Shown here in pieces: positions 30,806 to 62,010 of a DNA stretch of 64,000 nucleotides. This stretch comes from a virus, in the IMG/VR virus record IMGVR_UViG_3300030102_007483, positions 7,673 through 71,672 of that record, one strand, 5' to 3'. The notes under the pieces were generated by a model. It searched no databases and had not been told where the DNA came from. It worked only from the letters and a program-made list of their open reading frames with translations. How positions within the stretch are numbered: position 1 is the stretch's first letter; every line of letters begins with the position of its first letter. A program made the translations under genes and the position numbers.

Positions 30806-33800
30806 GTGGCAGAAACTCAAAAGCAGATGGAGGATCGTTTAGCTCGACTGAAAGCCAGCGACCCCGGCGATATGACGATTGATCTCGATGACGCTCCTGT
30901 GGGGGACAAGAAGCCTGCAAAGAAAGGCACTGATGTTGACGAAAAGCCACCAACCGAAGATGACAAACTAGGTAAGTTTGAAAAATTCCCTGAGTTCGAG
31001 GAGATGGACATTGATCTCCTCACAAAAGACCTTCAAATGAAACGGCTCGGTATTCGGATTGCGAGTGAGGCAGAATCGACAAAGCGAATAAATCCAAAGC
31101 TTGCGGCAGAAAAGAAAGAAAAAAACGAACCTATTCTCGCGTCGGACGAAATCCTCAAAGCGCATGCAGAGCTTGCGGGATTTACTGTCGAAGATTTCAA
31201 AAAGGCTGCCGAGTTTCAGGAAGCACCAATCCAAAATTTTTTCCGAGATATTGGAGATCAGGGTCGACCTGTCCAAGAAGTATTTGATGCCTACAAAACA
31301 CAAGAAAGTCTGTGGTCAAAAACACAGCAACAACGAAAAGTGTTGGCTAGAGGTGAAAAGGTTCGAATCAAAGGTATCGAACGAGTGGTTACGGGGGAAA
31401 AGAAATTGTCCCCTGAAAAAAGAAAGGAGACACTTCAAGTTCTCCTAGCGGCTAAAGACCCCCGATTGAAGAGCCGAATTTTTACGGGTGACGCCGACAG
31501 CGGTGAGGCTGAAGATGCAATCGCCAAGCCGGGTCAGGCTGGGTACGACCGTCTCACGATGCAGGCGAACAAGCTCATCAATAAAGAACTCGCAGATGAC
31601 AAGGAGCAGGCAGAGATTTATCAGAGTCACATTGCGGCTCTGGGGCCACCAACGACGGGCGCGATGATTCGTAACACTCTTGGTGAACGAAAGTTTCAAG
31701 AGATGGTAAATCAGATCTCCACTCATAAGCTCAACAAAATGGCTAAACGCCAAGGTGTTCAGAGAGGTACAGAAGCATATGAGGAATTGAGAGCTAAATC
31801 CAATCGTGACGCTCTGTACGAGGCCGCACTTCTAAGGACCGTGAATAAATACTATCTCCCCGGATTCGTGCAGTACGATCAGATTGACCCCGGAAACGTG
31901 CGTGGCGCGGAAGACACCAAGGATAAGTGGTGGATCACGCAAGCCATGAAAAACGCTGCGGATGTACGGATTGAGGTCGTCGGCTTGGACCCTAAGGGTA
32001 TTCCTGTCTATCGACTTACATCGCCTACATGGCATATTTTTGAGATGGCGGATTCGGTTCAGGCAGGTATTGCGGGTGCCATTGAGCGATTGTCCGACGA
32101 TGAGAGAGATGAGAGCATCTTGACTGCGATTCGAGAAGGATCCCTTGATGGTATTCGTAATCGACGAGACTTCTTGAAGGCGGCGCTGTCGAGTGAGGCT
32201 GCTGAGAACGGTGGTCTGGCTTCGTTTGCTATGGGGTCTGCGGGGCTTGTTGCTGCCATCCTCACTCCTGATCTCTTTATGGGCGCTGCCGCAGTCGCAC
32301 GAACAACAAAAAGGGTTGCGCAAATCGCGTCGGAAACTGCTGGGTTCCGTCGAGCCGCACCGGCATTGGTTGAATCTCTGGGAGATGGAGCGACAAGCTA
32401 CGCTAAAACCGAAGATGTGCTGGAGGCAGCAGAGGCTGCTGTTGCTAGAGGCGATTATGACTCGGCACTACTGATACTCGAAGAAGCTAAAACTATAGCT
32501 AAAAAAGGCGACGAGGCCCTGTCCAAGGCCCGTGGTGAGAATGTTGAGATTGCACGAGAAGTAGATCGATTGGATGTCGACATCGCTGCTCGCATGGGCA
32601 AAAAGGTGCCGGAAAGCACGTTTGCAGAGGGTAAGAGAGTCGCGTCAAAGATACCCGGATCCTTCGGAGAAACAGCCCAGAATGTTCATATGGGCGCTCG
32701 ACGGGTCATGTTGAGGGGCGAGTCACTCGATCAATTTACAGGATTTCCTGAGCTTCTGAGCTTCGAGAAGATGATCGATTCGTTGAAAGAAAGTGTCGAC
32801 ATTCTCAAGTCAGGCGACCTTAAAAACGCGTTCAATGCCAAACTTCGAGAGATGGTTGCAAACCCTTTTCGTAATGCCGTCGATGAACTTTTGACCGAAA
32901 CAGGCGTAGGCGTAGGAGATATAAATCGGAGTGTTGGCCTTAGACAACAATCTTTGGATTTGATGACATTCTTAAACAGTACAAAGAGTACTAGAATTCT
33001 ACGAGATGACCCGCAGTTGTATCGATCAGAGGTCATTCGCATCGCAAAGAAAATTGATTTCGATGACGCAGATAAAGAAAAGGCCTTCTTCAACGCGCTC
33101 GAAAAACGATTCCCAGACCTTTTAGACGAAGCTAATAATATTGGTAAAACACTGTCTAAAGTTTCCATCGCAGAGGCTCGTCAGGCCACATCGAGAGGGA
33201 TTGCTGCAATTAGGGGGAATCTTGAGTCTCGCGCAGCCTCATCGGCGTTTATTCGCGAACGTGTGGCCGAACAGGCCAAGGTGGCGGCTGAACCTCTTTT
33301 GATAAAGCTAACGGATCGATATGCCGAAGTTGGTCGAGATCGACTCTCGCCTCAAGCTCTGCAGATTCAAGACGCTATTTTGGACATCTACCCAAACATA
33401 GACTCATCAGAAATACGAAAGTTTACTCGTATGATGGATCAAGAGGCGAAGAAGTTTGCAGATTCTAAAAAAGGTAGAACTGTTGCAGACTTCTACGCGG
33501 AGAGATTTGGTGGTATCAAGAAGGGACTAGACGACGTTGCCGATGAAGTAAAGCCGAAGGACGTTAAACCGGAGACACAGAAGGATCCCACGATTGATGA
33601 GGTTACTCCAAAGGATGTTGCTCCGGAACCACAACCAGCACCACCAGCACGAGACCTTTTGGATGATGTTGAGGCCGGAAATATTTCTAAGTTGCCGAAG
33701 GGGCTTCAGGATGCTCTACGTGGAATTGCTAACGACGCGAAGAAAAGAGGCGGGTTTTCAGGACCAATTCAGGGTGTAAAACCTCAGCAGGTTTTGCCTG

Positions 33801-36800
33801 AGGTTGAAGACGCGTTCGCCGATTTGATGAATGCTGATCGACGCACCCAAGAAGTAAGGCCAGCAATACACGTTTTAAAATCATCCTCGCCGGGTTTGAG
33901 TGCCCGTACTTTATATAATCACGTCTCTAAGATGACACGCATGGACGAAGTGTGTGATTTTTTAGCCCGTCATGCGGAGCTTGATTCCACCAGACTGTTG
34001 GCTCAAAAAATACTGCCGAACCTACGTCGTGATCCGGGACAGTTTCGTGTCATCAGCGGTAAAGTCGATGACGTCGACCTTAGTGTGCGAGACGCTCATG
34101 GATTGTATTTTCCTAACACCCATAGAATATTTATACGTGGCGCACAAAAACCGGCAAGATTGGGCGATGAAATTCCGATCGAGACGGGTCTGACCGAAGA
34201 AACTCTTATTCATGAGTTGCTTCATGCAGCGACGGCAGTGTTCATCCAAAAAAACCCGAACGCTAAAGTTGTTCGAGATTTAGATCAACTTATTTCCGAA
34301 GTTCGAACTGGTTTGGGTGATTTGATCAAACAGATGACTGATGCGGGGCGAGGCAATCAACTCGGCTCGGTTTCCTTCTACTCCAATAACTTTGACTCCT
34401 ATGTTGGTTCTGCGGATGAGTTTCTTGTCCGCGCAATGACAGATCCAAAGTTCCAACGACTTTTGAAGCTAATTAAAGTAACGCCTAGATTAAGTATCTG
34501 GAATAAGTTTACGCGCGCTGTGGCATCTATTTTTGGTATTCGCAAAGAAGATGAAACAACCGCTCTGTCACAGGCGTTGATTGCCAGTGAAAGAGTTATA
34601 CAGAAGTCAGTAAAATTTGATCAACGACCTGCGTCAGATGCTGAACCCATCGTTAAGGTTCTTCGCCCTACACAAGGCACACCCGGAGTCGATGTAGGTG
34701 AACAAGTGGGCATGATCGATGAGTTTAGTGGCTTACCACTGTATGCAGAAAATGCATTACCCGACAGAATTAAACCGGATGTTTTTATCACATCGCCCAA
34801 ACTACGAAATCGCCCAGAAAATGGAATCACTCTGCAGACAGACAATCTTAGCGACCTTATTTCTCTGCGTGATTCGTTTACAGAAACATTTTCTGGTGTT
34901 CGAATTCCTAGATCAGATTCGGAGCAAGTTGTTCGTGTTTCAAACAGCTTCATTGACGTTGGTTTGAGGGGTAGAGGATTCGGCACCGACCTTTATCTGA
35001 GGGCATTGAAGTACGCACAAAATGAGGGAGTCGGTTTTGTAAGTGATGTCAGCCCAACGGGCGAAGCTCTTCGGGTTTATGCGAAATTGCGTTCGATGGG
35101 AGTTGGGTTTCGTCGATTACCCGTTCGTCTTGCAGACGGTAGTTTAGGGGAGGCCTCGTACATAGACGCTGTGTCTCTGGCTAAAGTTGATCTGGATGAT
35201 CTGGCGGTAACTCATGGTCTGCAAAATCGCTCAAGTATGTTTGGTCCATATGATAGTTTCGAAACGATTCCATCGAAGGTCCTGTACTCAAAACTAGCCG
35301 ACACATCGGATCCTTTGGTTGTTGAATTTTTGGAGAACGGGCAAGCAATCATTCGCGCTATTGGTGAGACTGCGAGTGTTGATGATTTTATTCGTGTTCT
35401 TGGTCGAATCTCACGCAGAGATCTTGATGAAAAGGGCATGAATATTGTTACGGATTGGCTCAAAACTAGAGGTATTAATGTCGGTTTTCAGGGTGCAAAG
35501 TTTACATCTGCTAACCCTGCTGACATTGAAAGGGCTGAGTCTGAGTTTGCGTCCGCCTTTGCTGCCTACGTTGACTCTGGTAGGGCAACGGACCCCGAAC
35601 TTGTAAAGCCTTTCAACACAGTTCGTGAGTGGGTTTCAGGTAAATATACTGCTCTTAGGAGTGCTGAAGCCGATGGAGCACCGTTTGAAATCGACGATCG
35701 TCTGACACTTCAACTCGACAAGATGATGCGGGTCCCTTCAAAGCGTGTCGGCATGCCGAACATCGTAGGCATGCTCAAAGACGCACTCATCAAACCAGAT
35801 TTGGGTGGGACATCAGTTGATGTTTTGGAGGAGATTGCTCGAGAAAGTTTCCGCTTGGGTACACCGATCAAAAAGAAAGACCTTCAAGAGCAGTTTACCA
35901 AGGCCTTGAAAGCGTACAACGCGGGCCGTAAAGAAGAGGCCGTCATAAGGTTACCGGGCCCCGTATCTATACGTGGGTGGAACGCTAGTTCAAGCACTGG
36001 CGCTAAAGAGTTTACCCTCGATGAGCTTGCCGACATACAACAAAGCTTGGAAACTGCAAAGCGTTTGGAGCTTCAGGAGGCCAGAAAGCTTGGTATGCCG
36101 ACTGCGGCACGAGCAATTGAAGAGAAGAATCCATCAGAGTTGGTCGATCAGTGGGTCACACAGAACCCAGTACAGGGCGCGTTCCGGTTCATGTATTTGG
36201 GTGGTGACGCGTTCGCAGATATGAGGCTGCTGCCTCCAGTCGTCCGTGATGCAATCATGGCCGGTACCCGAGCAGTGCAGCAAGCCATCGGTGATGCGAT
36301 TACTCTGGTTGCAGAAAAAGACATTGCTAAGTTGACCCAACTTTTGACTGGTGCTCCGAATGTTCAGTTTACAAAAGGTGGTCGATCAGCAATCAGTGCT
36401 GGCCACGATCACATGGCGGCTGTTTCATTAAACTTAGGGCGGTACTTCGCATCCGTGAATCAAACGAACTTGGGCATTGTACGAAACTTTGTTCAAAGAG
36501 TAAGAGTGTTGGACTCCACTGCGAAGGCAGCAGCAGAACTAAGTGCGGAAGAATTGGGCAAGGTATCCGAAATCGTTAATGATCTGATATCTGGAGATAA
36601 GGCTTCACGTTTTGTCACTGAGGTTTTCAAAGCGGCTGGATTTACGGGTAGTCGCATCGAGCCAAAGTTCTTTACGGAACCAGCTACAGGCCTTGATCCC
36701 GGCGGTCTGCTTGAAATATTGATGTATTACAGCAACGTATCCGGTCGTGTTGATCCTTCGATGACGACTCAAGATGGTCGACAAGTGTTTGCTTTCTTCA

Positions 36801-39349
36801 ACGAATCTATGAAGAACCGTGGTGCTCAGCGTGTGACATCGCAGAACATGTTTACAGGTCTTTACGCAGACATCAACGCAAAGTTTACAGACGACCCCAC
36901 AGTAGCTAACCGGGTTGCGGTGTTGATTGCTGGGCATGGTCAAGCTCACGCGGCGAAAAAACGTTGGGTCGACCTTGGAGTGGCGGCGGACGAAGATCTG
37001 GCAAGATCAATGCGCCAATACATCGTCGGTGAGTCTATCGATCCCGATGATGTCGTTCGAGTCAAAAACGCTTTCGACTCTCTTGGTTACAACCCCAACA
37101 TGGTCGAGGGATACGCTTTGGACGGCGTAACTATGTTTATACCCAGAGCCGGTAGAGAGCGTTTGAATATGGTTCTCGCTCAAGCTCAGGATCCTTCGCT
37201 GCTCAAAACAGACAATATGGATACTATTTCTGCCTTGAATGAAATCTCATCGGCGGGAGAAAGAATCATTACTGGTGCCGGTACAAACAGCACTACGGCA
37301 CTTAGTTTCGCACTTTTTTACCGATACCTGAAAACACGAATGGTTCGTGGTCACTTTGTTCTTAAGTCTCGATATTTTTGGATGAACACATTTGATCACT
37401 TCAATCAAACGGCTCAACGCGCCGGGTTTAGAACTGCCGCGATATCAACGACTCGTATGTTCACGCAGAATGTCCTTTCAAACCCAATAGGTCAGGCGTT
37501 TGTTTTTGCGGCAAGAAGAACGGGTAAGGGAGATGCCGCAGAGGCTGCGCGTCGGGTTCTGCAAGAAGGTGGGGACAAAGCTGCCGAGTGGGCGGGTAAA
37601 CTGACTCGCGGGTCAAAATGGCACATCAAACTCAATCCAATATTGGAGGGTGCGGAAGGCATCGTAATGATTGCCGGAAAGCCCTACAGGAACACAGATA
37701 TTAGGCAAGCGGCTCTTGAAGCAGGTATTTTTGCCTCATTCGACACCAGTCAGTTGGGTACAAAAATTCAAAATGTCGGGAACCTTTTTCTTCAGACTGA
37801 GGCGAAGAAGGGTCGACTGACAAAACTTGGAACAGATATCCTCGACGACGTGAAGGGAGCATCGGAAGACATCGCAGAAGCGTGGGCCGAACGAGAGCGA
37901 CTCGGATGCATGATTACCCTGATGGAAGCGGGTATCGACCCGAGAACTGCCGCAAAGATAAGCATCGAGGCACTGTACGATTACGCAGGAAGCATGTCGA
38001 AAGGTGATCGAAACTTTTTGCTGAACATATTCTTCCCATTCTGGGCCTTCCAGAAAAACGCAAACCGACAAATTTTCGACGCGATGTTCAGTCCCGAAGG
38101 CGCTTACAGGCTCGGTGTCATGCGTAGAGCCTATGACAAGGGCAGTGAATACCTTAGTTATCTTACCTATGGTGCAATGGTCGACGAGAACGGTATTGCC
38201 GTCGACTCTTTGCCCCCAGAACTACGAAGCACATATTTTGCTTTCAAAAAGCAAATGCAAGACCTGTATGGTGAGAACGGAAAAATTCCAGCACCTATAC
38301 AAGAGGAAATACGATTGTTTGTCGCGCAGTCCATGATCAAGACAACCGGCGGTAAAGTCATGCAAGGGTCTGTGTACTACGACGATTTTATCGATATTGC
38401 TGCGTCGATCAAGGGTGAGGATGGTAAATCTGTGGGCTTAGATCGAAGAGCACTCGCTTCGTACTACATGCCTATTCCTGATAGGTCCGGACTGCAGACC
38501 TACTTTAGAGATCGCATTTCATTCCCTCTGCCCTACGCGCCAGAGAAGTTCGGTGAAACGCCTGTAAACTACGCTCCTCCCGAAGATTTTCAGAACACAA
38601 CTAAAGCTTGGAATGATCTGTATCGACAGAAGAGAGCCGACGCTCCTTACATGGCTTTCTTTATGCCTGAACCCACTTATGTTGCAGCGTTCAATCACTT
38701 CTCGTACTTGATGGCAACTAAGATCCTCATGATGCAAAAAATGGAGGACATGGGTGACCGTTGGTTTACGGACGAAGACGATGGTTCCGATGCCATCACA
38801 CCACTTGCTGCAGTCAACGCGCTGCTGAGCCCCGCTCGTGCGCCGGTCCTTTCCGACGTTCAAGCAAGTTTAGGTACGGGTGGAGCGACGATTCCGAAAA
38901 GAATTGCCCAAGACCTTGTTCATTTTTTCGACTATCACCTGATTGATTTGCTTGAGTTAGATGAGTCCGAAGATATTTTTGATATTCAACTGCAACAACA
39001 ACGGGATGAGGCCGAGGGTCGAGAGCCTCGGGATCTGCCGATAAAACCTATTGATGCAGCTATTGTGCCGACAAAACGATACTACATGATGCCCGGCGTA
39101 GCACAAATGTTGTTTATCAATAGTCCGCTTGGAGAGTTGAACGACATCCTCCTGAAGGCAGAAAAGACTCCGATGGAAAAAGCATCCGGCATAAGAGGTG
39201 ACGTTCAAAAGTGGTTGAGAGTGTTCACGGGTCTGGATCAAAGAGAAATTATCAGAGACAGGACGGTGATGTCAGAAAAGTTCCGGGCCGAAGATCAAAC
39301 GTCTGACGTCACAAAGGAAAGGGCCAGAGAAAAAACTCAACTAGATTGA
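30806..39349 (+). CDS. Giant ejection/polyvalent protein with zincin metallopeptidase-like and GNAT-like domains
   Basis: 2847 aa; TLIHELLHAAT...DEFLVRAMTDPKFQ (HExxH); LRGRGFGTDLY (GNAT motif A); C-terminal ALYDY...FFPFWAF typical of T7 gp16-type proteins. Confidence 0.8.
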   Translation: MAETQKQMEDRLARLKASDPGDMTIDLDDAPVGDKKPAKKGTDVDEKPPTEDDKLGKFEKFPEFEEMDIDLLTKDLQMKRLGIRIASEAESTKRINPKLAAEKKEKNEPILASDEILKAHAELAGFTVEDFKKAAEFQEAPIQNFFRDIGDQGRPVQEVFDAYKTQESLWSKTQQQRKVLARGEKVRIKGIERVVTGEKKLSPEKRKETLQVLLAAKDPRLKSRIFTGDADSGEAEDAIAKPGQAGYDRLTMQANKLINKELADDKEQAEIYQSHIAALGPPTTGAMIRNTLGERKFQEMVNQISTHKLNKMAKRQGVQRGTEAYEELRAKSNRDALYEAALLRTVNKYYLPGFVQYDQIDPGNVRGAEDTKDKWWITQAMKNAADVRIEVVGLDPKGIPVYRLTSPTWHIFEMADSVQAGIAGAIERLSDDERDESILTAIREGSLDGIRNRRDFLKAALSSEAAENGGLASFAMGSAGLVAAILTPDLFMGAAAVARTTKRVAQIASETAGFRRAAPALVESLGDGATSYAKTEDVLEAAEAAVARGDYDSALLILEEAKTIAKKGDEALSKARGENVEIAREVDRLDVDIAARMGKKVPESTFAEGKRVASKIPGSFGETAQNVHMGARRVMLRGESLDQFTGFPELLSFEKMIDSLKESVDILKSGDLKNAFNAKLREMVANPFRNAVDELLTETGVGVGDINRSVGLRQQSLDLMTFLNSTKSTRILRDDPQLYRSEVIRIAKKIDFDDADKEKAFFNALEKRFPDLLDEANNIGKTLSKVSIAEARQATSRGIAAIRGNLESRAASSAFIRERVAEQAKVAAEPLLIKLTDRYAEVGRDRLSPQALQIQDAILDIYPNIDSSEIRKFTRMMDQEAKKFADSKKGRTVADFYAERFGGIKKGLDDVADEVKPKDVKPETQKDPTIDEVTPKDVAPEPQPAPPARDLLDDVEAGNISKLPKGLQDALRGIANDAKKRGGFSGPIQGVKPQQVLPEVEDAFADLMNADRRTQEVRPAIHVLKSSSPGLSARTLYNHVSKMTRMDEVCDFLARHAELDSTRLLAQKILPNLRRDPGQFRVISGKVDDVDLSVRDAHGLYFPNTHRIFIRGAQKPARLGDEIPIETGLTEETLIHELLHAATAVFIQKNPNAKVVRDLDQLISEVRTGLGDLIKQMTDAGRGNQLGSVSFYSNNFDSYVGSADEFLVRAMTDPKFQRLLKLIKVTPRLSIWNKFTRAVASIFGIRKEDETTALSQALIASERVIQKSVKFDQRPASDAEPIVKVLRPTQGTPGVDVGEQVGMIDEFSGLPLYAENALPDRIKPDVFITSPKLRNRPENGITLQTDNLSDLISLRDSFTETFSGVRIPRSDSEQVVRVSNSFIDVGLRGRGFGTDLYLRALKYAQNEGVGFVSDVSPTGEALRVYAKLRSMGVGFRRLPVRLADGSLGEASYIDAVSLAKVDLDDLAVTHGLQNRSSMFGPYDSFETIPSKVLYSKLADTSDPLVVEFLENGQAIIRAIGETASVDDFIRVLGRISRRDLDEKGMNIVTDWLKTRGINVGFQGAKFTSANPADIERAESEFASAFAAYVDSGRATDPELVKPFNTVREWVSGKYTALRSAEADGAPFEIDDRLTLQLDKMMRVPSKRVGMPNIVGMLKDALIKPDLGGTSVDVLEEIARESFRLGTPIKKKDLQEQFTKALKAYNAGRKEEAVIRLPGPVSIRGWNASSSTGAKEFTLDELADIQQSLETAKRLELQEARKLGMPTAARAIEEKNPSELVDQWVTQNPVQGAFRFMYLGGDAFADMRLLPPVVRDAIMAGTRAVQQAIGDAITLVAEKDIAKLTQLLTGAPNVQFTKGGRSAISAGHDHMAAVSLNLGRYFASVNQTNLGIVRNFVQRVRVLDSTAKAAAELSAEELGKVSEIVNDLISGDKASRFVTEVFKAAGFTGSRIEPKFFTEPATGLDPGGLLEILMYYSNVSGRVDPSMTTQDGRQVFAFFNESMKNRGAQRVTSQNMFTGLYADINAKFTDDPTVANRVAVLIAGHGQAHAAKKRWVDLGVAADEDLARSMRQYIVGESIDPDDVVRVKNAFDSLGYNPNMVEGYALDGVTMFIPRAGRERLNMVLAQAQDPSLLKTDNMDTISALNEISSAGERIITGAGTNSTTALSFALFYRYLKTRMVRGHFVLKSRYFWMNTFDHFNQTAQRAGFRTAAISTTRMFTQNVLSNPIGQAFVFAARRTGKGDAAEAARRVLQEGGDKAAEWAGKLTRGSKWHIKLNPILEGAEGIVMIAGKPYRNTDIRQAALEAGIFASFDTSQLGTKIQNVGNLFLQTEAKKGRLTKLGTDILDDVKGASEDIAEAWAERERLGCMITLMEAGIDPRTAAKISIEALYDYAGSMSKGDRNFLLNIFFPFWAFQKNANRQIFDAMFSPEGAYRLGVMRRAYDKGSEYLSYLTYGAMVDENGIAVDSLPPELRSTYFAFKKQMQDLYGENGKIPAPIQEEIRLFVAQSMIKTTGGKVMQGSVYYDDFIDIAASIKGEDGKSVGLDRRALASYYMPIPDRSGLQTYFRDRISFPLPYAPEKFGETPVNYAPPEDFQNTTKAWNDLYRQKRADAPYMAFFMPEPTYVAAFNHFSYLMATKILMMQKMEDMGDRWFTDEDDGSDAITPLAAVNALLSPARAPVLSDVQASLGTGGATIPKRIAQDLVHFFDYHLIDLLELDESEDIFDIQLQQQRDEAEGREPRDLPIKPIDAAIVPTKRYYMMPGVAQMLFINSPLGELNDILLKAEKTPMEKASGIRGDVQKWLRVFTGLDQREIIRDRTVMSEKFRAEDQTSDVTKERAREKTQLD

Positions 39350-53824: not shown

Positions 53825-56605
53825 GTGGCATCCTTCAACCCCAAAGAATGTGGCGCGCGGTGTGACGTCTGTCCGTTGGGGCCAGAAGGACCACTTCATA
53901 AAGATGAGTGGCGGCCTGTGGGTGGTGAGTTCCATCGACAGGCTGCCATCATCGCTGTAGCTGAATCCCCCGGAGCAGATGAGGTTCAGCACGGGAGACC
54001 TTTAGTTGGTCGAGCAGGTACAGAGTGGGCGAACGCTCTGGTGCAGGCTGGAAAAGGTAGAGTGGACGTCGACTTGGATCACGTCATCTCATGCAAGCCG
54101 CCGGGACAAGACTCTGGGTCGTGGCGTCGTATGGAAAAGGCACTCGACAGACTCAACAGAAGACGACTGAAGAATGGTGATGATCCTCTGCCTCACCCAG
54201 TCGAATGTTGTCGGCCTCGCCTTATGAGTGTGGTCGAGAAGTATGAAAACATTATTACCTTAGGTAAAACTGCAACGTCAGTATTGACGGGTCAATCAAG
54301 CAGCATCCAAAGTTTGCGAGGTGGCCCGATGCAGATTGACGACGACTTTGATTGGGTGTCCGATCGTGGGACGAGAAAAATTATGCCCATGCTGCACCCG
54401 TCGTTTATTTTAAGGTCACCGAGTTGGAGGCATGTATTGCACTCTGACGTGGCCAAAGCATTTAGGTGGTTCGACAATTGTTTGCGCTGGACATCGCCAG
54501 ATAGTCTGATCAACCCATCGCCTGATGAACTTGCTGACTGGTTGTCCCAAAGCGCGCCGTTCTGGGCTTACGACGTTGAGACAGACGGGATCGAACCCTT
54601 AGAGTGCAATCTGCGAACAATCGCGATTGCTATCCCTGACATGGATGAAACGGGTAAAGCTGCTCGGTCAAACGTGTATCAAAATGCGAAGGCCGTAGGT
54701 GTCGGTCTGCTGTCGGTTGATGGTCGCACACGAATCTACAACCCTGAAGATGAGAGAAAGATTTTGGATCTTCTCCGTCAGGCATTTACAGACGGACGAG
54801 TATGGGTTGGTCACAACGCAGGATACTACGACAGGATGGTGGTCGAGACTCAACTCGGAGTCACACCCTACCCGCTTGTGGACACTCTTTTTCATGCACG
54901 TTTTAGGGCCCCAGATCTGCCGAAAGGGTTGAAGACAATTGGTTCAATACTGACCGATGTCGAGCGTTGGGAAACAACAGAAAAGGGAACACACATATCG
55001 ACCGGTAGTCAGGATGACGATGAGCTACTGCGATACAACATCGTTGATTCTACAGTCAACGCACGGATCGTTGTGCCCTTGATGGACGCTTCTGCTGCTG
55101 CTGGAGCATTCGAAAGCATATCACCAGACATCAAACCTTCTGGTTGGTCAATCGCTCGACCGTGGAATCTAAATGAAATCGACCATGCCACACAAGAGAT
55201 GTGTGTTGGAATGCACAAGTCGGGTGTTTGGGTCGATCAAAAGCTTCGTTCATTGTTGGAAGCGGAGTATGATGTATCAGTACGAAAACGCTACAAGAAC
55301 CTGCAGTCACTGGCTCAGTGCGTTGGGTTGTCTAAATTGGACTCAGACTCGGTGAACGAGTTGAACCCCGGTAGCGCCGATCAAATTCGTAATCTGCTCT
55401 ATGAGCGTTGGGGCTTGGGTATACCTGCATCAATGGATGCGCGGGAGTTCTACACCGAGACGGGCGCTCCGGGTACTGGTGACGCGGTGCTGAGGGCGCA
55501 TCTTGCCTCAGGTCGATTGACGGAAGATCAAGAATCATTTGTTCGTGAGTTGAGACTGTATCGGAGGGAGAAAAACAAAATCTTGGGAACCGTTTTGATT
55601 CCACTGCGCAGACGCGATCAAGACTCTAAAAAAGGATTGGTCCATGAAGATGGTCGTGTCCGATCAACATGGAATGCTCACGTAACAAGTGTGGGCCGAC
55701 TGAGTAGTAGCGGACCAAACTTACAGAATATCGGTAACCGAAAAGGTCAGGGAAGACTGAAAAAGATTTTTGCCGCTCCTCCCGGACGAATACTTGTTGG
55801 AGCCGATCTCGATCAAGCGCACCTGAGAATCACGGCTTGTTATTGGCAAATACCCCGTTTGCTTGAATGCTTTGCAACTGGAAAGGATCCCCACAATCTT
55901 CTTGCTTACGACGTTTTTGGTAAAGACTTTAAGAATGCAAGCGGATGGGGTCCGGATGGTTTCAGCTTGAACCGCAAGCCTACAGGCGGTGAAGCAAAAG
56001 CTATGCGCGATGTAATGAAGACCTTTCGGTACGCGTCAATCTATTGGGCAGACCCTACGACTGTATGGCAGGTACTGACTAGCACAGAGACAGATGATGG
56101 TCGTATGCCATACCTGAAGTTCGAGACGAGGGAAGTAAGGCATTTCCACAACAAGTGGCTCGAGGCAGAGCCTGAGTGGGAGGTGGCGTGGAAGAACATG
56201 CTGCAGCTTTATGAGAAGCAGGGCCATATGTTTGAGCCGGTGTTCGGTCGCAGGTCAGGGCCACTGTCAGACGGTAAAAAGAATGAGGTCGTAAACTTCC
56301 CAATCCTCGCGGCAGAATCGTCGATTATGAGAATCGCAGAACAAGAGGTAATCTCGGCGTTCCCGTTTGACTACGCGGGTCGTGGAACTGGAATGATCCA
56401 TCAGTGCCATGATTCTATAGCAGTTGAAATTGAACTGCCATCGGGGCTACCTCAAGACTGGCAGCCGGTATCCGGTGAACCGTTGCCACCACAAATAGAG
56501 CATGCACGAAAAACTATCGAATCATGCATGACAGTTTCTCTTCCGGGATGGGAAGTCCCAATGACTGCTGAGGCCGACGTCGGTCGCAGCCTTAAAGATG
56601 TTTGA
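53825..56605 (+). CDS. polA: Family A DNA polymerase with N-terminal family-4 UDG-like domain and 3'-5' exonuclease
   Basis: UDG: CxxC, AESPG, GRPLVG, C, C, HPS. Exo: YDVET, GHNAGYYD, YNIVD. Pol: GRLSS..PNLQNI, DLDQAHLR, RDVMKTFRY...Y, HD. Confidence 0.95.
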   Translation: MASFNPKECGARCDVCPLGPEGPLHKDEWRPVGGEFHRQAAIIAVAESPGADEVQHGRPLVGRAGTEWANALVQAGKGRVDVDLDHVISCKPPGQDSGSWRRMEKALDRLNRRRLKNGDDPLPHPVECCRPRLMSVVEKYENIITLGKTATSVLTGQSSSIQSLRGGPMQIDDDFDWVSDRGTRKIMPMLHPSFILRSPSWRHVLHSDVAKAFRWFDNCLRWTSPDSLINPSPDELADWLSQSAPFWAYDVETDGIEPLECNLRTIAIAIPDMDETGKAARSNVYQNAKAVGVGLLSVDGRTRIYNPEDERKILDLLRQAFTDGRVWVGHNAGYYDRMVVETQLGVTPYPLVDTLFHARFRAPDLPKGLKTIGSILTDVERWETTEKGTHISTGSQDDDELLRYNIVDSTVNARIVVPLMDASAAAGAFESISPDIKPSGWSIARPWNLNEIDHATQEMCVGMHKSGVWVDQKLRSLLEAEYDVSVRKRYKNLQSLAQCVGLSKLDSDSVNELNPGSADQIRNLLYERWGLGIPASMDAREFYTETGAPGTGDAVLRAHLASGRLTEDQESFVRELRLYRREKNKILGTVLIPLRRRDQDSKKGLVHEDGRVRSTWNAHVTSVGRLSSSGPNLQNIGNRKGQGRLKKIFAAPPGRILVGADLDQAHLRITACYWQIPRLLECFATGKDPHNLLAYDVFGKDFKNASGWGPDGFSLNRKPTGGEAKAMRDVMKTFRYASIYWADPTTVWQVLTSTETDDGRMPYLKFETREVRHFHNKWLEAEPEWEVAWKNMLQLYEKQGHMFEPVFGRRSGPLSDGKKNEVVNFPILAAESSIMRIAEQEVISAFPFDYAGRGTGMIHQCHDSIAVEIELPSGLPQDWQPVSGEPLPPQIEHARKTIESCMTVSLPGWEVPMTAEADVGRSLKDV

Positions 56606-56612
56606 GGTTTGT

Positions 56613-57041
56613 ATGAAATCGCAATGGTTCCTAGCTCACAGTAAAAAAGATGAACCCGAAGAAATTGAACTCTGGTGCAAAGAGATCGGCGAGAATCTTA
56701 CAGGTGATGGATGGGAGGCGTTTGTCATCTCTGGTCGCGATGACTACGCCAATCGATCCGCCGCAATGGGTGGGTGGAAAGCTTGGTGCCGGGACGTACC
56801 TTCTGGTACAGACTATGCTGGTCATCCGATGTACCACGGTGTCATCGTTCCCGCAGATTCATTGATAGAAGAACCGACCGTGGGCAAGGCTACCGCACAA
56901 ATCATCGAGGGTTTTCTGAGGGAAGGCAAGCATGCATATACATGGTGCCCCGATTCTAAAAAGTTCAAGCAAATATATTCTGTCGAAACACTTCCAAATG
57001 ATGACTGGGTGGCTTGGGCAAAACTTGTGTTTGAGTCTTGA
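56613..57041 (+). CDS. TIR/nucleoside 2-deoxyribosyltransferase-like fold protein (putative)
   Basis: WFLAHSKKD, YHGVIVP, VGKATAQIIEGFLREGKHAY follow the flavodoxin-like NDT/TIR pattern; SD GAGGT. Confidence 0.5.
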   Translation: MKSQWFLAHSKKDEPEEIELWCKEIGENLTGDGWEAFVISGRDDYANRSAAMGGWKAWCRDVPSGTDYAGHPMYHGVIVPADSLIEEPTVGKATAQIIEGFLREGKHAYTWCPDSKKFKQIYSVETLPNDDWVAWAKLVFES

Positions 57042-59856: not shown

Positions 59857-59895
59857 TGATGTTTCGTAAATTATTTGACTTTTAAGGTGGTGAGC

Positions 59896-62010
59896 ATGGA
59901 AAGTGATGGCTCAGCGACGGTAGATGAACCTCGCAGTGCAGCAAATGCTGAGCCCAGTGAAGAAACTAACAACAGTCATCGAGACATTTTGTCTCGATTG
60001 TTAGCGTCCCTTCAAGCTGGTGGTCGTGAAGAACAACGTGCGGCGTGGGCTGCAATACAAGATCCCGATGTGATGGCGGCTCTTGCCGATGGATGGCGAG
60101 CAAATGAAGCAGAGGTCAGTGCTGCGTTCTCAGTGATTGAAACTGTTCCGGGACAGGTGCAGAGAACACGCAACATGAGGTCGGCAGTCAGACGGTTGGC
60201 TGAAGAGCGTAGTCGTCGAGATGCAGATCGATTGATTGATCAGCTTGAAGAACAACTTGGTCAACCCCAAACGCTCGCGTCACTTTTGGGTGGTGGTGCG
60301 CCACCCCCATCTGTGCTGCCAATACAAACACTTGAGACACTTCACATGCCCCGTGGTTTCGACATGGATGTGTCAGGTGTCTACCGGCTATCAGCCTCGG
60401 TCGATGGTACTCTTAACCGCACGAGGATTGCTCCTGCTCCCATTTTTATAGCTGGTCGAACGGTCGATGTGCATTCGGGTGAGGCGAAGCGTCAGGTCAT
60501 CTGGAGGGGTCCAAGCGGGTGGTGCTCACGGGTGATCGACCGCAGGACAATTCTTGACGCGTCAAAGATTATTCTTCTTACAAATCTTGAGGCACCGATC
60601 AATTCAAACACAACAGGTCAGATGGTTCAGTACCTCGCCGACTTCGAGGCTGATAACAGTCATCGATTCCCTGTCGTTCGTTCTGCTGCTCGTATGGGTT
60701 GGCAGCCTGATGGTGGGTTCCTGTTGCCTGATGTGTTTTACGCTGTGAATGATGAGGCAAGCTCCAACTTTGCGCTTACCCCGCCAAGCGGGTTGGAGAC
60801 ACTTTCTTCTGGATGGACCACTGCTGGCACATGGGAAGGGTGGCTCGAAGCTATGGGGCTTGTCTCATCATTCCCCTACATGTACATCGCCATGTACGCT
60901 GGGGCAGCGGCTCCACTGCTTTCTGTGTTGCGTATCCCCGGATTCGTCGTTGACTTCAGTGGTGAAACAAGTGGAGGAAAGACAACGGCACTCCGATTTT
61001 CCGCGTCGGTTTGGGGAAGACCTGCTGAGTCGTACCCAACTGCAATGTATTCGTGGGATGCCACAAAGGTTTGGATTGAACGGACTAGTGGATTTCTTCA
61101 CAATCTGCCGTTGATTCTCGACGAGACTAAGCGAGCAAGGCACCCAAGGATTGTGCGTGATGTCATTTACGACTTTTGCCAAGGACAAGGTCGTGGTCGT
61201 GGGTCCGTCGATGGTACAAGGCATACAGAGTCTTGGCGTTCAGTTCTAATCAGCAGCGGTGAGGGCGCGGCAACATCGTTTTCGCAGGACGCAGGAACGC
61301 GAGCGCGAGTGCTCAGCTTGAAAGGTAAGCCGCTTGGCAGTGATGTTGATGTCGGCTCAAGAGTGAGTGAAGAAGCGCAGATTATTTTGGCAACAAACTA
61401 CGGCCATCTTGGCAGAAGACTTGTGCAATATCTTGTGGCCAATCGTGCGAGTCATGATGACATCCGTCAGATCTTTCGGCAGGCCAGAGACAAGTACGCA
61501 AGTATTGCACGGACTGCTGTTGCTCGTAGACATGCAGGTCACCTTGCTGTCTTGGAAGTTACGGCCGCGATTGTGCACCTGTTGGGTGTACCACAACCTG
61601 ATGTTGATCCGTTTGGGTATCTGATCGAGTCTCAGGAAGCTGCTGCTGCAGACGCAGACAGACCGTTGGCTGCCTTGCAAGACATGTTGTCTTGGTGTGC
61701 GACACATCAAACAAGGTTTTGGGGGCGTGCTGACCTTGATAACAATGGGCGTCCTCGCGCACCGAATGCCGGTTGGGCGGGCTCTTGGGGCTCAGGCGAA
61801 GACTGGGACTTCATTGCAATATCAACGCTCACCTTCAAAGAGGTGATCAGAAATATCGGACATGACCCAGATGAAATTATCCAACGGTGGGTGGCTCGTG
61901 GGTGGCTGAACACAGGATCAGGAAGGCATCGTACCCGAGTTGTCAGGATCGATGGGGCACCTACCCGATGCTACTGTATTGATAAGACAGCAAGTGACTA
62001 TGCTCTTTAG
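59896..62010 (+). CDS. DUF927/Cch-like replicative helicase without a recognisable primase domain
   Basis: ARMGW, TWEGW, FSGETSGGKTT, SVWG, LPLILDE, GQGRGR, LISSGE, GTRAR, NYGH; C-terminal winged-helix-like end. Confidence 0.88.
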   Translation: MESDGSATVDEPRSAANAEPSEETNNSHRDILSRLLASLQAGGREEQRAAWAAIQDPDVMAALADGWRANEAEVSAAFSVIETVPGQVQRTRNMRSAVRRLAEERSRRDADRLIDQLEEQLGQPQTLASLLGGGAPPPSVLPIQTLETLHMPRGFDMDVSGVYRLSASVDGTLNRTRIAPAPIFIAGRTVDVHSGEAKRQVIWRGPSGWCSRVIDRRTILDASKIILLTNLEAPINSNTTGQMVQYLADFEADNSHRFPVVRSAARMGWQPDGGFLLPDVFYAVNDEASSNFALTPPSGLETLSSGWTTAGTWEGWLEAMGLVSSFPYMYIAMYAGAAAPLLSVLRIPGFVVDFSGETSGGKTTALRFSASVWGRPAESYPTAMYSWDATKVWIERTSGFLHNLPLILDETKRARHPRIVRDVIYDFCQGQGRGRGSVDGTRHTESWRSVLISSGEGAATSFSQDAGTRARVLSLKGKPLGSDVDVGSRVSEEAQIILATNYGHLGRRLVQYLVANRASHDDIRQIFRQARDKYASIARTAVARRHAGHLAVLEVTAAIVHLLGVPQPDVDPFGYLIESQEAAAADADRPLAALQDMLSWCATHQTRFWGRADLDNNGRPRAPNAGWAGSWGSGEDWDFIAISTLTFKEVIRNIGHDPDEIIQRWVARGWLNTGSGRHRTRVVRIDGAPTRCYCIDKTASDYAL

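What the first reader, a model, noticed from the sequence alone, without database searches (positions are those of the whole stretch)
55660..56430. PolA with His at the steric gate and altered base-reading residues
Seen: motif A DLDQAHLR (His codon 55820-55822) versus DYSQIELR; motif B RDVMKTFRYASIYW versus RRSAKAINFGLIYG; NFPILAAES versus NAPMQGTAAD; motif C HDS. In E. coli Pol I numbering D705, D882, H881, R668, R754, K758 and Y766 are intact, while E710H, N761R, F762Y, G763A, G767W and Q849L differ. Established: E710 excludes rNTPs, Q849 reads the template minor groove, and both are near-invariant; Y762 is the T7-type variant. Inference: an active enzyme with changed sugar/base selectivity, either using rNTPs (self-priming) or adapted to a non-canonical nucleotide.
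Basis: partly seen in the sequence, partly recalled or inferred. Interest (0 to 1): 0.88.

Follow-up and report, generated by a model that had tools for sequence, protein, structure and literature searches.

The report
Phage DNA polymerase with histidine sugar-gate
The only DNA polymerase of this uncultured 72-kb marine phage has swapped four normally fixed residues of its nucleotide pocket as one linked set, including histidine for the glutamate that keeps RNA building blocks out; the variant is widespread in uncultured phages, I found no description of it, and its effect on the enzyme is untested.

Summary
ORF 53825-56605 (+) is a 926-aa UDG / 3'-5' exonuclease / family A polymerase. Profile alignment to E. 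coli Pol I and T7 gp5 gives H666=E710 (codon CAC 55820-55822), L828=Q849, S864=E883, Y736=F762, W741=G767 and R735=N761. D705, D882, H881, R668, R754, K758, Y766 and N845 are kept.

Of 148 cluster representatives, 74 carry [V/P/I/N]-H-[L/I]-E and 74 the canonical [T/S..]-E-[Q..]-[A/G..]. None is mixed. All 136 close relatives carry the His set. W767 is not linked, and HDS/HDA is family-wide.

One AU test rejects a single origin (p 0.008). A sparser one did not (p 0.49).

Most likely this is an active, proofreading replicase with a compensated re-wiring of the sugar and minor-groove check. rNTP use and self-priming are not supported. No gene for modified nucleotides was found, and Glu-type relatives share the same replication module.

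I found no paper describing the variant. This scan has noted the same variant before on other genomes, with the same four-site reading.

The parts
53825..56605 (+). UDG / 3'-5' exonuclease / family A DNA polymerase gene, 926 aa, GTG start
   Evidence: ORF list; Pfam; PHROG 17, E 1.3e-59; AF2 model with mean pLDDT 93.4 and pTM 0.91; Foldseek best hit Klenow 1kfs, TM 0.80 on the target
53930..54427 (+). Family-4 UDG-like domain (Pfam span aa 36-201). Fe-S cysteines and the HPS His are kept. The uracil-reading Asn is His86 and the stacking Phe is Leu60.
   Evidence: Pfam PF03167, 41 bits; alignment to TM0511 and T. thermophilus UDG; C13, C16, C90 and C129 conserved
54527..54937 (+). 3'-5' exonuclease domain (Pfam span aa 235-371; Exo III lies further on, at Y404/D408)
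   Evidence: Pfam PF01612, 18.3 bits, below its cut-off; D250, E252, D336, Y404 and D408 invariant in 52 sequences
55691..55699 (+). TGR motif read as VGR. V623 = E. coli T666 (linked site 1); R625 = R668 is kept.
   Evidence: R625 invariant
55805..55828 (+). Motif A, DLDQAHLR. D661 = D705. H666 = E710, codon CAC 55820-55822 (linked site 2, the sugar gate).
56006..56047 (+). Motif B (O helix), RDVMKTFRYASIYW. R728 = R754, K732 = K758, Y736 = F762 (T7 type), Y740 = Y766, W741 = G767 (variable, not linked).
56294..56320 (+). Motif 6, NFPILAAES. N824 = N845 is kept. L828 = Q849 (56306-56308, linked site 3). E831 = A852 (56315-56317, linked site 4). All lie on predicted helix 819-845 at i, i+4, i+7.
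56408..56416 (+). Motif C, HDS. H862 = H881, D863 = D882, S864 = E883. The loss of Glu here is family-wide.
56613..57041 (+). Conserved small gene directly after the polymerase (142 aa from the ATG at 56613). It is present next to both His-type and Glu-type polymerases, so it is not tied to the His set.
   Evidence: AF2 pLDDT 94.4; best structural Z 6.7, SEFIR/TIR/NDT-like, tied rows, inconclusive

Best explanation
This is the phage's replicative, proofreading family A DNA polymerase. The polar cluster under the incoming nucleotide has been replaced as one compensated unit. In canonical enzymes that cluster is Thr666 of the TGR motif, the sugar-gate Glu710, the minor-groove Gln849 and a small residue at 852.

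Shown here: the replacement V623 / H666 / L828 / E831 is all-or-none across hundreds of natural sequences, it is under purifying selection, and the catalytic core is intact.

Inferred:
- The imidazole ring of H666 now lies under C2' of the incoming sugar, as the aromatic gates of other polymerase families do.
- The carboxylate lost from 710 reappears one helix turn after 849, at E831. There it can hold the His ring and keep the charge balance with R625.
- L828 and V623 pack the ring where Gln and Thr used to hydrogen-bond the Glu.

Expected consequence: the enzyme still makes DNA from dNTPs, with the gate helped by Tyr736. It has lost the direct Gln849 hydrogen bond to the template base at the primer terminus, and it has altered the Glu/Asn/Gln-held water that reads the incoming base. 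Mismatch or lesion extension and analogue tolerance are therefore likely to differ from Glu-type enzymes.
For: Mapping to E. coli and T7 residues.

Linkage:
- 148 representatives at 50% clustering split into 74 with [V/P/I/N]-H-[L/I]-E and 74 with [T/S/G/A/N]-E(D)-[Q/S/A]-[A/G/C/M/S]. Of these, 4 His-type rows and 1 Glu-type row have gaps at one or two of the sites. None of the 148 is mixed.
- Of 136 close relatives, 135 carry V/P-H-L-E and 1 is gapped.
- Of 110 proteins around P0236, 12 are VHLE, 97 are [T/S]EQ[A/G] and 1 is SDQA.
- Of 78 loci, none is mixed.
- Mutual information with the His/Glu state is 1.00, 1.00 and 0.98 for sites 831, 828 and 623. The next column scores 0.94. The N-terminal 520 aa reach at most 0.51.

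More than one switch:
- With the trait columns removed, IQ-TREE places the His type in 2 clades (64 rows) or 3 clades (55 rows).
- The AU test on the 55-row set rejects a single clade (delta lnL 45.8, p 0.0083).
- The second His clade has the Glu-type residue at secondary positions 679, 693, 735, 785, 811 and 909, which argues against transfer of one segment.

Selection and activity:
- Synonymous codon variation occurs at all four sites in 65 loci.
- D661, R728, K732, Y740, N824, D863, R625 and the exonuclease D250, E252, D336, Y404 and D408 are invariant.

Structure: N824, L828 and E831 lie on one predicted helix (819-845) at i, i+4, i+7, and H666 starts helix 665-673 right after the D661 strand.

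Literature (passages seen):
- In KlenTaq ternary complexes one water bonded to O2 of the incoming dNTP is held by E615, N750 and Q754 (= E710, N845, Q849), and Q754 also bonds the template base (PMC6125688).
- In Bst, Q797, R615, E658 and D830 lie close together and interact electrostatically (PMC10520511).
Against: - No biochemical data exist for any member.
- I could not read coordinates of the model, so the H666-E831 contact and the ring position under the sugar are inferred from helix spacing and covariation. They were not measured.
- The first AU test (64 rows, only 3 rows of the second clade) did not reject a single origin (delta lnL 1.49, p 0.493). I chose the rows of the second set after seeing the first tree.
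- If there was one origin, part of the linkage could be shared descent.
- E710A, and Q849 replacements in Klenow, are reported to impair catalysis or change fidelity (review passage), so an unchanged phenotype cannot be assumed.
- The UDG catalytic residues are less conserved in the His type (Glu of the GE.PG motif 33 of 66 against 55 of 73; Asn 44 of 66 against 63 of 73; His 43 of 66 against 63 of 73). My explanation does not account for this.
Confidence: 0.6

Rival explanations
1. Relaxed sugar gate. His, pulled back by E831, opens room for a 2'-OH. The polymerase would then use rNTPs and could start or extend RNA, replacing a primase.
For: - No Toprim_2, Toprim_4 or Prim-Pol match in the complete genome.
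- The DUF927 helicase protein has an unassigned N-terminal 155 aa.
- The Glu that defines the family A sugar gate is absent.
Against: - Tyr at position 762 is kept in 245 of 284 relatives. A review reports that the equivalent F710Y change in Bst nearly abolished rCTP use (passage).
- An imidazole ring is not smaller than the Glu side chain (general knowledge).
- Glu-type relatives carry the same replication module. The two Glu-type records searched also show no TOPRIM and only a sub-threshold Prim-Pol hit, so the missing primase is not tied to His. Both records are rated incomplete by CheckV.
- Proofreading residues are intact.
Confidence: 0.1
2. Adaptation to a non-canonical nucleotide. The lost Gln849 contact and the new His would accommodate a base or sugar modification in the phage DNA.
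For: - UDG-fused family A polymerases of SPO1-like and SP15-like phages go with thymine-modified genomes (PMC10201439 and PMC13697223, sections and passages read).
- Most ORFs of this genome have no known family, so a new pathway could be hidden.
- The UDG pocket of this protein is altered: Asn to His86 and Phe to Leu60.
Against: - No thymidylate-synthase/hydroxymethylase or adenylosuccinate-synthetase (PurZ-type) match in the complete genome.
- No ThyA-type match in 5 relatives' records.
- No nucleotide-metabolism Pfam hit in about 58 ORFs scanned.
- Known natural phage base modifications that I can recall sit in the major groove, apart from 2-aminoadenine. The DpoZ hallmark (Phe at the Y766 position, PMC10201439) is absent: Y740 is invariant.
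- Glu-type and His-type polymerases sit in syntenic modules.
Confidence: 0.12
3. A functionally equivalent alternative. The four residues are simply a second stable way to build the same pocket, with no measurable change in selectivity or fidelity.
For: - Both states persist over deep divergence in otherwise similar phages with the same gene neighbourhood.
- No accessory gene tracks the state.
Against: - Leu cannot replace the hydrogen bond that Gln849 makes to the template base (passage).
- The switch needs several nucleotide changes at four codons. No intermediate was seen among the 393 proteins examined that are read at all four sites (148, 136 and 110 proteins, 4 shared), which suggests low-fitness intermediates and hence selection to complete the set.
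Confidence: 0.15
4. Artefact or decaying gene: an assembly error or a pseudogene.
For: None found.
Against: - The frame is open for 926 aa.
- An identical or near-identical protein occurs on many independent contigs.
- Synonymous variation with the residue conserved.
- High-confidence fold.
Confidence: 0.01

Closest known systems
Bacterial DNA polymerase I large fragments (E. coli Klenow, KlenTaq, Bst BF)
   Same: - The exo+pol fold matches: profile E 2.5e-62 to Klenow over aa 228-857; Foldseek TM 0.80 on the target.
- D705, D882, H881, R668, R754, K758, Y766 and N845 are kept.
- Exonuclease motifs are kept.
   Different: - About 20% identity or less.
- An N-terminal UDG domain is present.
- T666V, E710H, Q849L, A852E, E883S and F762Y.
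Glu-type sister lineages of the same uncultured UDG-PolA family (for example P0176 / locus L004, P0294)
   Same: - Same three-domain architecture, 35-48% identity, with Tyr at position 762 in most of them and HDS or HDA at motif C.
- Same exo / Sak4 / PolA / orf147 / SbcC-like gene order.
   Different: - They keep the canonical T/S-E-Q-A/G set.
- L004 has an integrase nearby.
N4-like UDG-PolA (cluster #17 of Czernecki et al. 2023, PMC10201439)
   Same: N-terminal family-4 UDG fused to exo and pol, in phage genomes of about 70-75 kb (passages).
   Different: - Cluster #17 has Phe at B3 and a UDG that has lost its catalytic His hairpin. This protein has Tyr736 and keeps the HPS motif.
- The N4-like phage phiA41 has S-E at positions 666/710.
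- Only about 25% identity over aa 218-702.
SPO1-like and SP15-like UDG-PolAs (YerA41, phiLo; Missoury et al. 2026, PMC13697223)
   Same: UDG+exo+pol fusion with the UDG catalytic motifs retained (section 15 read).
   Different: - SP15-like enzymes have about 1200-1400 aa, with two large inserts and a C-terminal domain. They have Phe next to the sugar and the E710-type gate is cited. Their genomes carry thymidine-modification genes.
- None of these features is present here.
- I did not fetch SPO1, YerA41 or phiLo sequences.
T7 gp5
   Same: Tyr at the 762 position (Y526) and a replicative role.
   Different: T7 keeps T427, E480, Q615, G618 and E655. It has no UDG domain.
Virus Rctr197k PolA (KX853510), the best named record in the phage collection
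   Same: Full-length similarity, covering 97% of the query.
   Different: 22% identity, with the canonical T-E-Q-A set and HDY at motif C.

Membership tests
Family A DNA polymerase (Pfam PF00476) | Match to the family profile above the curated cut-off | tested here: met
   99 bits against a cut-off of 34.3, aa 511-870
Family A DNA polymerase | Catalytic Asp of motifs A and C; motif B Arg, Lys and Tyr; R668 of the TGR motif | tested here: met
   D661, D863, R728, K732, Y740 and R625 are aligned to E. coli or T7 and invariant in 52 sequences
Family A DNA polymerase | Glu at the sugar gate (position A2, E. coli E710) | tested here: not met
   H666
Family A DNA polymerase | Thr of the TGR motif, Gln of motif 6 (Q849), Glu after the motif C Asp (E883) | tested here: not met
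   V623, L828 and S864. The text of Czernecki et al. names only one cluster that replaces the TGR Thr.
DnaQ-like 3'-5' exonuclease domain of Pol I | Exo I DxE, Exo II D, Exo III YxxxD | tested here: met
   D250, E252, D336, Y404 and D408 invariant. The Pfam score of 18.3 is below the 23.6 cut-off.
Family-4 uracil-DNA glycosylase | Profile match and the four Fe-S cysteines | tested here: met
   PF03167, 41 bits against 24.3; C13, C16, C90 and C129
Family-4 uracil-DNA glycosylase | Uracil pocket: GE(A/G)PG Glu, stacking Phe, uracil-reading Asn, HPS His | tested here: inconclusive
   AESPG and HPS are kept, but Phe is Leu60 and Asn is His86 in the alignment to TM0511 and the T. thermophilus UDG. 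The roles of these residues are recalled, not tested.
N4-like UDG-PolA (cluster #17) | Phe at B3; UDG lacking the catalytic His hairpin | tested here: not met
   Y736 and HPS are present. The definition comes from passages of PMC10201439.
SP15-like UDG-PolA | Two large inserts plus an about 80-aa C-terminal domain; length about 1200-1400 aa | tested here: not met
   926 aa, colinear with Klenow apart from the UDG domain. The definition comes from PMC13697223 section 15.
SPO1-like UDG-PolA | Clustering with SPO1 / SP-10 polymerases | not tested
   No SPO1 sequence was fetched. No phage record exceeds 29% identity.
DpoZ (2-aminoadenine polymerases) | Phe at position B4 (Y766), and PurZ in the genome | tested here: not met
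   Y740 is invariant. No Adenylsucc_synt match in the genome. The hallmark comes from PMC10201439.

The most novel reading that the evidence does not exclude
The V/H/L/E set changes what the polymerase accepts. It might admit ribo-, 2'-modified or minor-groove-altered nucleotides, or extend from template positions that offer no minor-groove contact, such as abasic sites left by its own UDG domain. In that case a very abundant group of marine phages would replicate with a chemistry or a priming mode not yet described for family A replicases, and the four-residue set would be a natural recipe for altering polymerase selectivity.
Probability: 0.15. Interest if true: 0.9.

Novelty: new variant of a known kind. 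Interest (0 to 1): 0.63.

Why it matters
E710 and Q849 are textbook residues of the Pol I family. They are treated as conserved in the 19-cluster survey of family A polymerases (text of PMC10201439).

A large natural clade replaces both of them, together with the TGR Thr, and adds a Glu at 852 in an all-or-none fashion. This gives three things:
- a clear case of multi-site epistasis in an essential active site;
- a direct test of how the sugar gate and the minor-groove check depend on each other;
- a natural template for engineering family A polymerases.

It also matters for metagenomic work that types viral polA genes by position 762 alone.

Tried and rejected
- **Full-length MAFFT** of 290 proteins timed out. 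I replaced it with HMM-anchored alignments.
I used single proteins instead. P0236 found nothing in viral contigs, so I have no genomic context for the second His clade.
- **Host**: the one hit in genome contigs is a 70,027-bp contig in a MAG labelled Myxococcaceae. It is phage-sized, so I take no host from it.
- **Primase**: the sub-threshold Prim-Pol hits in two relatives have no homologue in this genome (phmmer, E 0.01 or better). One of them contains two in-frame TGA codons. This does not show that a primase exists or is absent.
- **Named phages with His**: 5 of 5 INPHARED polymerases that I fetched have Glu or Asp at position 710: Rctr197k, Mel-JY34, phiA41, MW202665 and Vibrio phage K479. 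Those five were picked from 835 and 432 matching records, so the rest are unchecked.
- **Literature**: searches for E710H / E615H / E658H / E480H found 0 papers. Searches combining steric gate, histidine, family A and phage, UDG fusion, and steric gate, virioplankton and polA found no description of a His gate. Passages of PMC10201439, PMC13697223, PMC8599892, PMC6302109, PMC11348598 and bioRxiv 10.64898/2026.05.20.726624 contain none either. Figures (the motif logos) and supplementary files were not visible and could hold such a logo.
- **divPolA1**: earlier scan notes say this family also has a His gate. I did not test that.
- **orf147**: Foldseek found no match at E 0.001 or better. VIA-align gave a best Z of 6.7 with ties among SEFIR, TIR, STING-TIR and 2'-deoxyribosyltransferase folds, which is too weak to name a family.
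- **Not run**: sequencing-run look-up, read laying, complex prediction and the ESM Atlas.


Full report
**What is there**

The window is 64 kb of a single 71,672-bp virus record that CheckV rates 100% complete. It encodes:
- a portal, a large terminase and a major head protein;
- a 2847-aa ORF with no known family;
- a replication block: SNF2-type helicase, PD-(D/E)XK-like exonuclease, Sak4-like ATPase, a 198-aa ORF, the polymerase, a small conserved ORF, an SbcC-like protein and a DUF927 helicase;
- an SSB in the 7.7 kb outside the window.

The finding lies in ORF 53825-56605 (+), 926 aa. Pfam gives family-4 UDG (aa 36-201), a weak 3'-5' exonuclease match (235-371) and DNA_pol_A (511-870). 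An AlphaFold2 model built on 52 relatives has mean pLDDT 93.4. Its best structural neighbours are Klenow, phage G20c Pol I, M. smegmatis Pol1, KlenTaq and Bst (TM about 0.8 on the target).

**Check of the observation**

The equivalences hold under three independent alignments:
- phmmer against Klenow;
- a family HMM against E. coli PolA and T7 gp5, both fetched from annotated records;
- a 52-sequence profile that aligns to Klenow in one piece from the exonuclease domain to the C-terminus, E 2.5e-62.

The result is:

| Query residue | E. coli | Status |
|---|---|---|
| H666 | E710 | changed |
| L828 | Q849 | changed |
| S864 | E883 | changed |
| Y736 | F762 | changed |
| R735 | N761 | changed |
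| A737 | G763 | changed |
| W741 | G767 | changed |
| D661 | D705 | kept |
| D863 | D882 | kept |
| H862 | H881 | kept |
| R625 | R668 | kept |
| R728 | R754 | kept |
| K732 | K758 | kept |
| Y740 | Y766 | kept |
| N824 | N845 | kept |

**How widespread it is**

The protein has hundreds of close relatives on metagenomic contigs of about 65-76 kb. A search of 1.84 billion cluster representatives gave 476 hits at E 1e-30 or better, of which the best 150 were listed.

No record of the GenBank phage collection exceeds 29% identity. The best full-length hit is Virus Rctr197k at 22%. The whole family, including its Glu-type half, therefore has no cultured member in that collection.

**The linked set**

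Across 284 collected relatives, position 710 is His in 209, Glu in 73 and Asp in 1. Position 849 is Leu in 202, Ile in 5 and Gln in 70.

I scored every polymerase-domain column against the His/Glu state in the 50%-identity representatives (71 His, 73 Glu). Three further columns came out at or near the maximum:
- L828 (= Q849), 1.00;
- E831 (= A852, T7 G618), 1.00;
- V623 (= T666, the Thr of the TGR motif), 0.98.

The four-site signatures are:

| Set | His-type | Glu-type | Mixed |
|---|---|---|---|
| 148 representatives | 74 [V/P/I/N]-H-[L/I]-E | 74 [T/S/G/A/N]-E(D)-[Q/S/A]-[A/G/C/M/S] | 0 |
| 136 close relatives | 135 V/P-H-L-E (1 more gapped) | 0 | 0 |
| 110 proteins around the distant member P0236 | 12 VHLE | 97 [T/S]EQ[A/G], 1 SDQA | 0 |
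| 78 loci from public contigs | 73 (4 H only, 1 L/S only) | 5 | 0 |

The loci were scored at positions 710, 849 and 883.

The N-terminal 520 residues hold no comparably linked column (maximum 0.51).

Position 767 needs 62 parsimony changes on the tree, position 762 needs 27 and position 883 needs 42, against 3 for position 710. Ser, Ala or Gln at 883 occurs in both halves.

In 65 related loci all four sites show synonymous codon variation while the residue is kept.

**One origin or several**

- A FastTree of 148 rows and an IQ-TREE of 64 rows (columns 710 and 849 removed) placed the His type in two separate clades. The AU test on that set did not reject a single clade (p 0.493).
- I then added relatives of the second clade. 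A 55-row tree with all four columns removed placed the His type in three clades. One of them (8 rows) is sister to 4 Glu-type rows with 99% SH-aLRT support.
- The AU test on this set rejects a single His clade (delta lnL 45.8, p 0.0083).
- The rows were hand-picked and the second set was chosen after I had seen the first tree, so I treat at least two coordinated switches (gains or reversals) as likely, not proven.
- The second clade has Glu-type residues at the secondary type-associated positions 679, 693, 735, 785, 811 and 909. This speaks against transfer of one contiguous segment.

**Mechanistic reading**

Passages of a KlenTaq structure paper state two things (PMC6125688):
- In ternary complexes a water bonded to O2 of the incoming nucleotide is held by E615, N750 and Q754 (= E710, N845, Q849).
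- Q754 also bonds N3 or O2 of the template base at the terminus.

A Bst review states that Q797, R615, E658 and D830 lie close together and interact electrostatically (PMC10520511).

In the model, N824, L828 and E831 sit on one helix (819-845) at i, i+4 and i+7. H666 opens the helix that follows the strand ending in D661.

From this I infer the following:
- The carboxylate has moved from 710 to 852.
- His fills the place under the sugar and is held by that Glu.
- Leu and Val replace the partners that hydrogen-bonded the old Glu.
- N824 and R625 stay in place.

This keeps charge and packing but removes the direct Gln-template contact. I could not measure distances, because model coordinates are not returned.

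*rNTP use or self-priming.*
- The genome has no detectable TOPRIM or Prim-Pol.
- The Glu-type relatives share the gene order exo / Sak4 / PolA / orf147 / SbcC-like. The two Glu-type records searched also gave nothing above threshold. CheckV rates them 35% and 53% complete, and one has terminal repeats.
- Tyr at 762 and an intact exonuclease argue for ordinary DNA synthesis.

*Non-canonical nucleotide.*
- No ThyA/hydroxymethylase or PurZ-type gene in this genome.
- No ThyA-type gene in five relatives.
- No nucleotide-metabolism family in about 58 ORFs scanned.
- Most ORFs are of unknown function, so this is absence of evidence only.

**Comparison with what is known**

UDG-PolA fusions are described in three groups: N4-like (inactive UDG, Phe at B3), SPO1-like and SP15-like (large inserts, thymine-modified genomes) (PMC10201439 passages; PMC13697223 outline, section 15 and passages).

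This protein fits none of them. It has Tyr at B3, it keeps the HPS motif, it has 926 aa without the SP15 inserts, and it shares about 25% identity or less with N4-like phages.

The survey text speaks of strict conservation of the crucial catalytic residues across 19 clusters and names only one cluster that replaces the TGR Thr. I could not see its logos or supplements.

Four literature searches and passages of six papers gave no description of a His gate in a family A polymerase.

Five of five named phage polymerases that I fetched have Glu or Asp at 710.

**Relation to earlier notes of this scan**

After I had derived the four-site set, look-ups showed that follow-up agents had reported the same His-gate variant on other genomes. 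Those reports describe three or four linked substitutions and more than one origin. My results agree with them. They are not independent evidence.

**Verdict**

This is a real, strongly conserved natural variant of a textbook active site, carried by the replicase of an abundant group of uncultured marine phages. Its anatomy and its evolutionary coupling are well supported. Its biochemical meaning is open.

Noticed in passing
window 53930-54427 (UDG domain): The fused family-4 UDG keeps the Fe-S cysteines, AESPG and HPS. It has His86 where T. maritima and T. thermophilus UDG have the Asn before the Cys, and Leu60 for the Phe of GRPF. Across the family the UDG catalytic positions are less conserved next to His-type polymerases than next to Glu-type ones, for example Glu 33 of 66 against 55 of 73.
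   Followed up: partly
window 56613-57041: A 142-aa gene directly after the polymerase stop is conserved next to both His-type and Glu-type polymerases. Relatives start at the MKSQWFLAH-type ATG, so 56613 is a better start than 56598. The model is confident (pLDDT 94.4). Only weak, tied fold matches to SEFIR / TIR / STING-TIR / 2'-deoxyribosyltransferase were found (best Z 6.7).
   Followed up: partly
whole genome (G000) and relatives G001-G005: No TOPRIM or Prim-Pol family match in the complete genome, and none above threshold in five relatives. The DUF927 helicase protein (59875-62010) has 155 unassigned N-terminal residues. How replication is primed is unknown.
   Followed up: partly
relatives P0086, P0093, P0095, P0143, P0179, P0163, P0222, P0231, P0247 and others: Large insertions of 131-407 aa, some with HNH, LAGLIDADG or intein Pfam domains in the source annotation. 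They recur at four active-site spots: about query residues 623 (TGR), 633, 739 (motif B) and 830 (motif 6).
   Followed up: partly
window 30806-39349: A 2847-aa ORF in the structural region with no PHROG or Pfam match at the thresholds used.
   Followed up: no
L003 4424-5065 (-), outside the window: A DUF3228 protein (E 2.7e-31) lies near the SSB gene in the 7.7 kb of the genome that precede the window.
   Followed up: no
L004 16013-17113: The Glu-type relative has a tyrosine integrase 3 kb downstream of its polymerase. No integrase was seen among the window ORFs scanned.
   Followed up: no
L090 (genome contigs): A 70,027-bp contig with a 61%-identical His-type polymerase is filed in a MAG labelled Myxococcaceae. 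By its size it is probably a phage genome binned with a bacterium.
   Followed up: no
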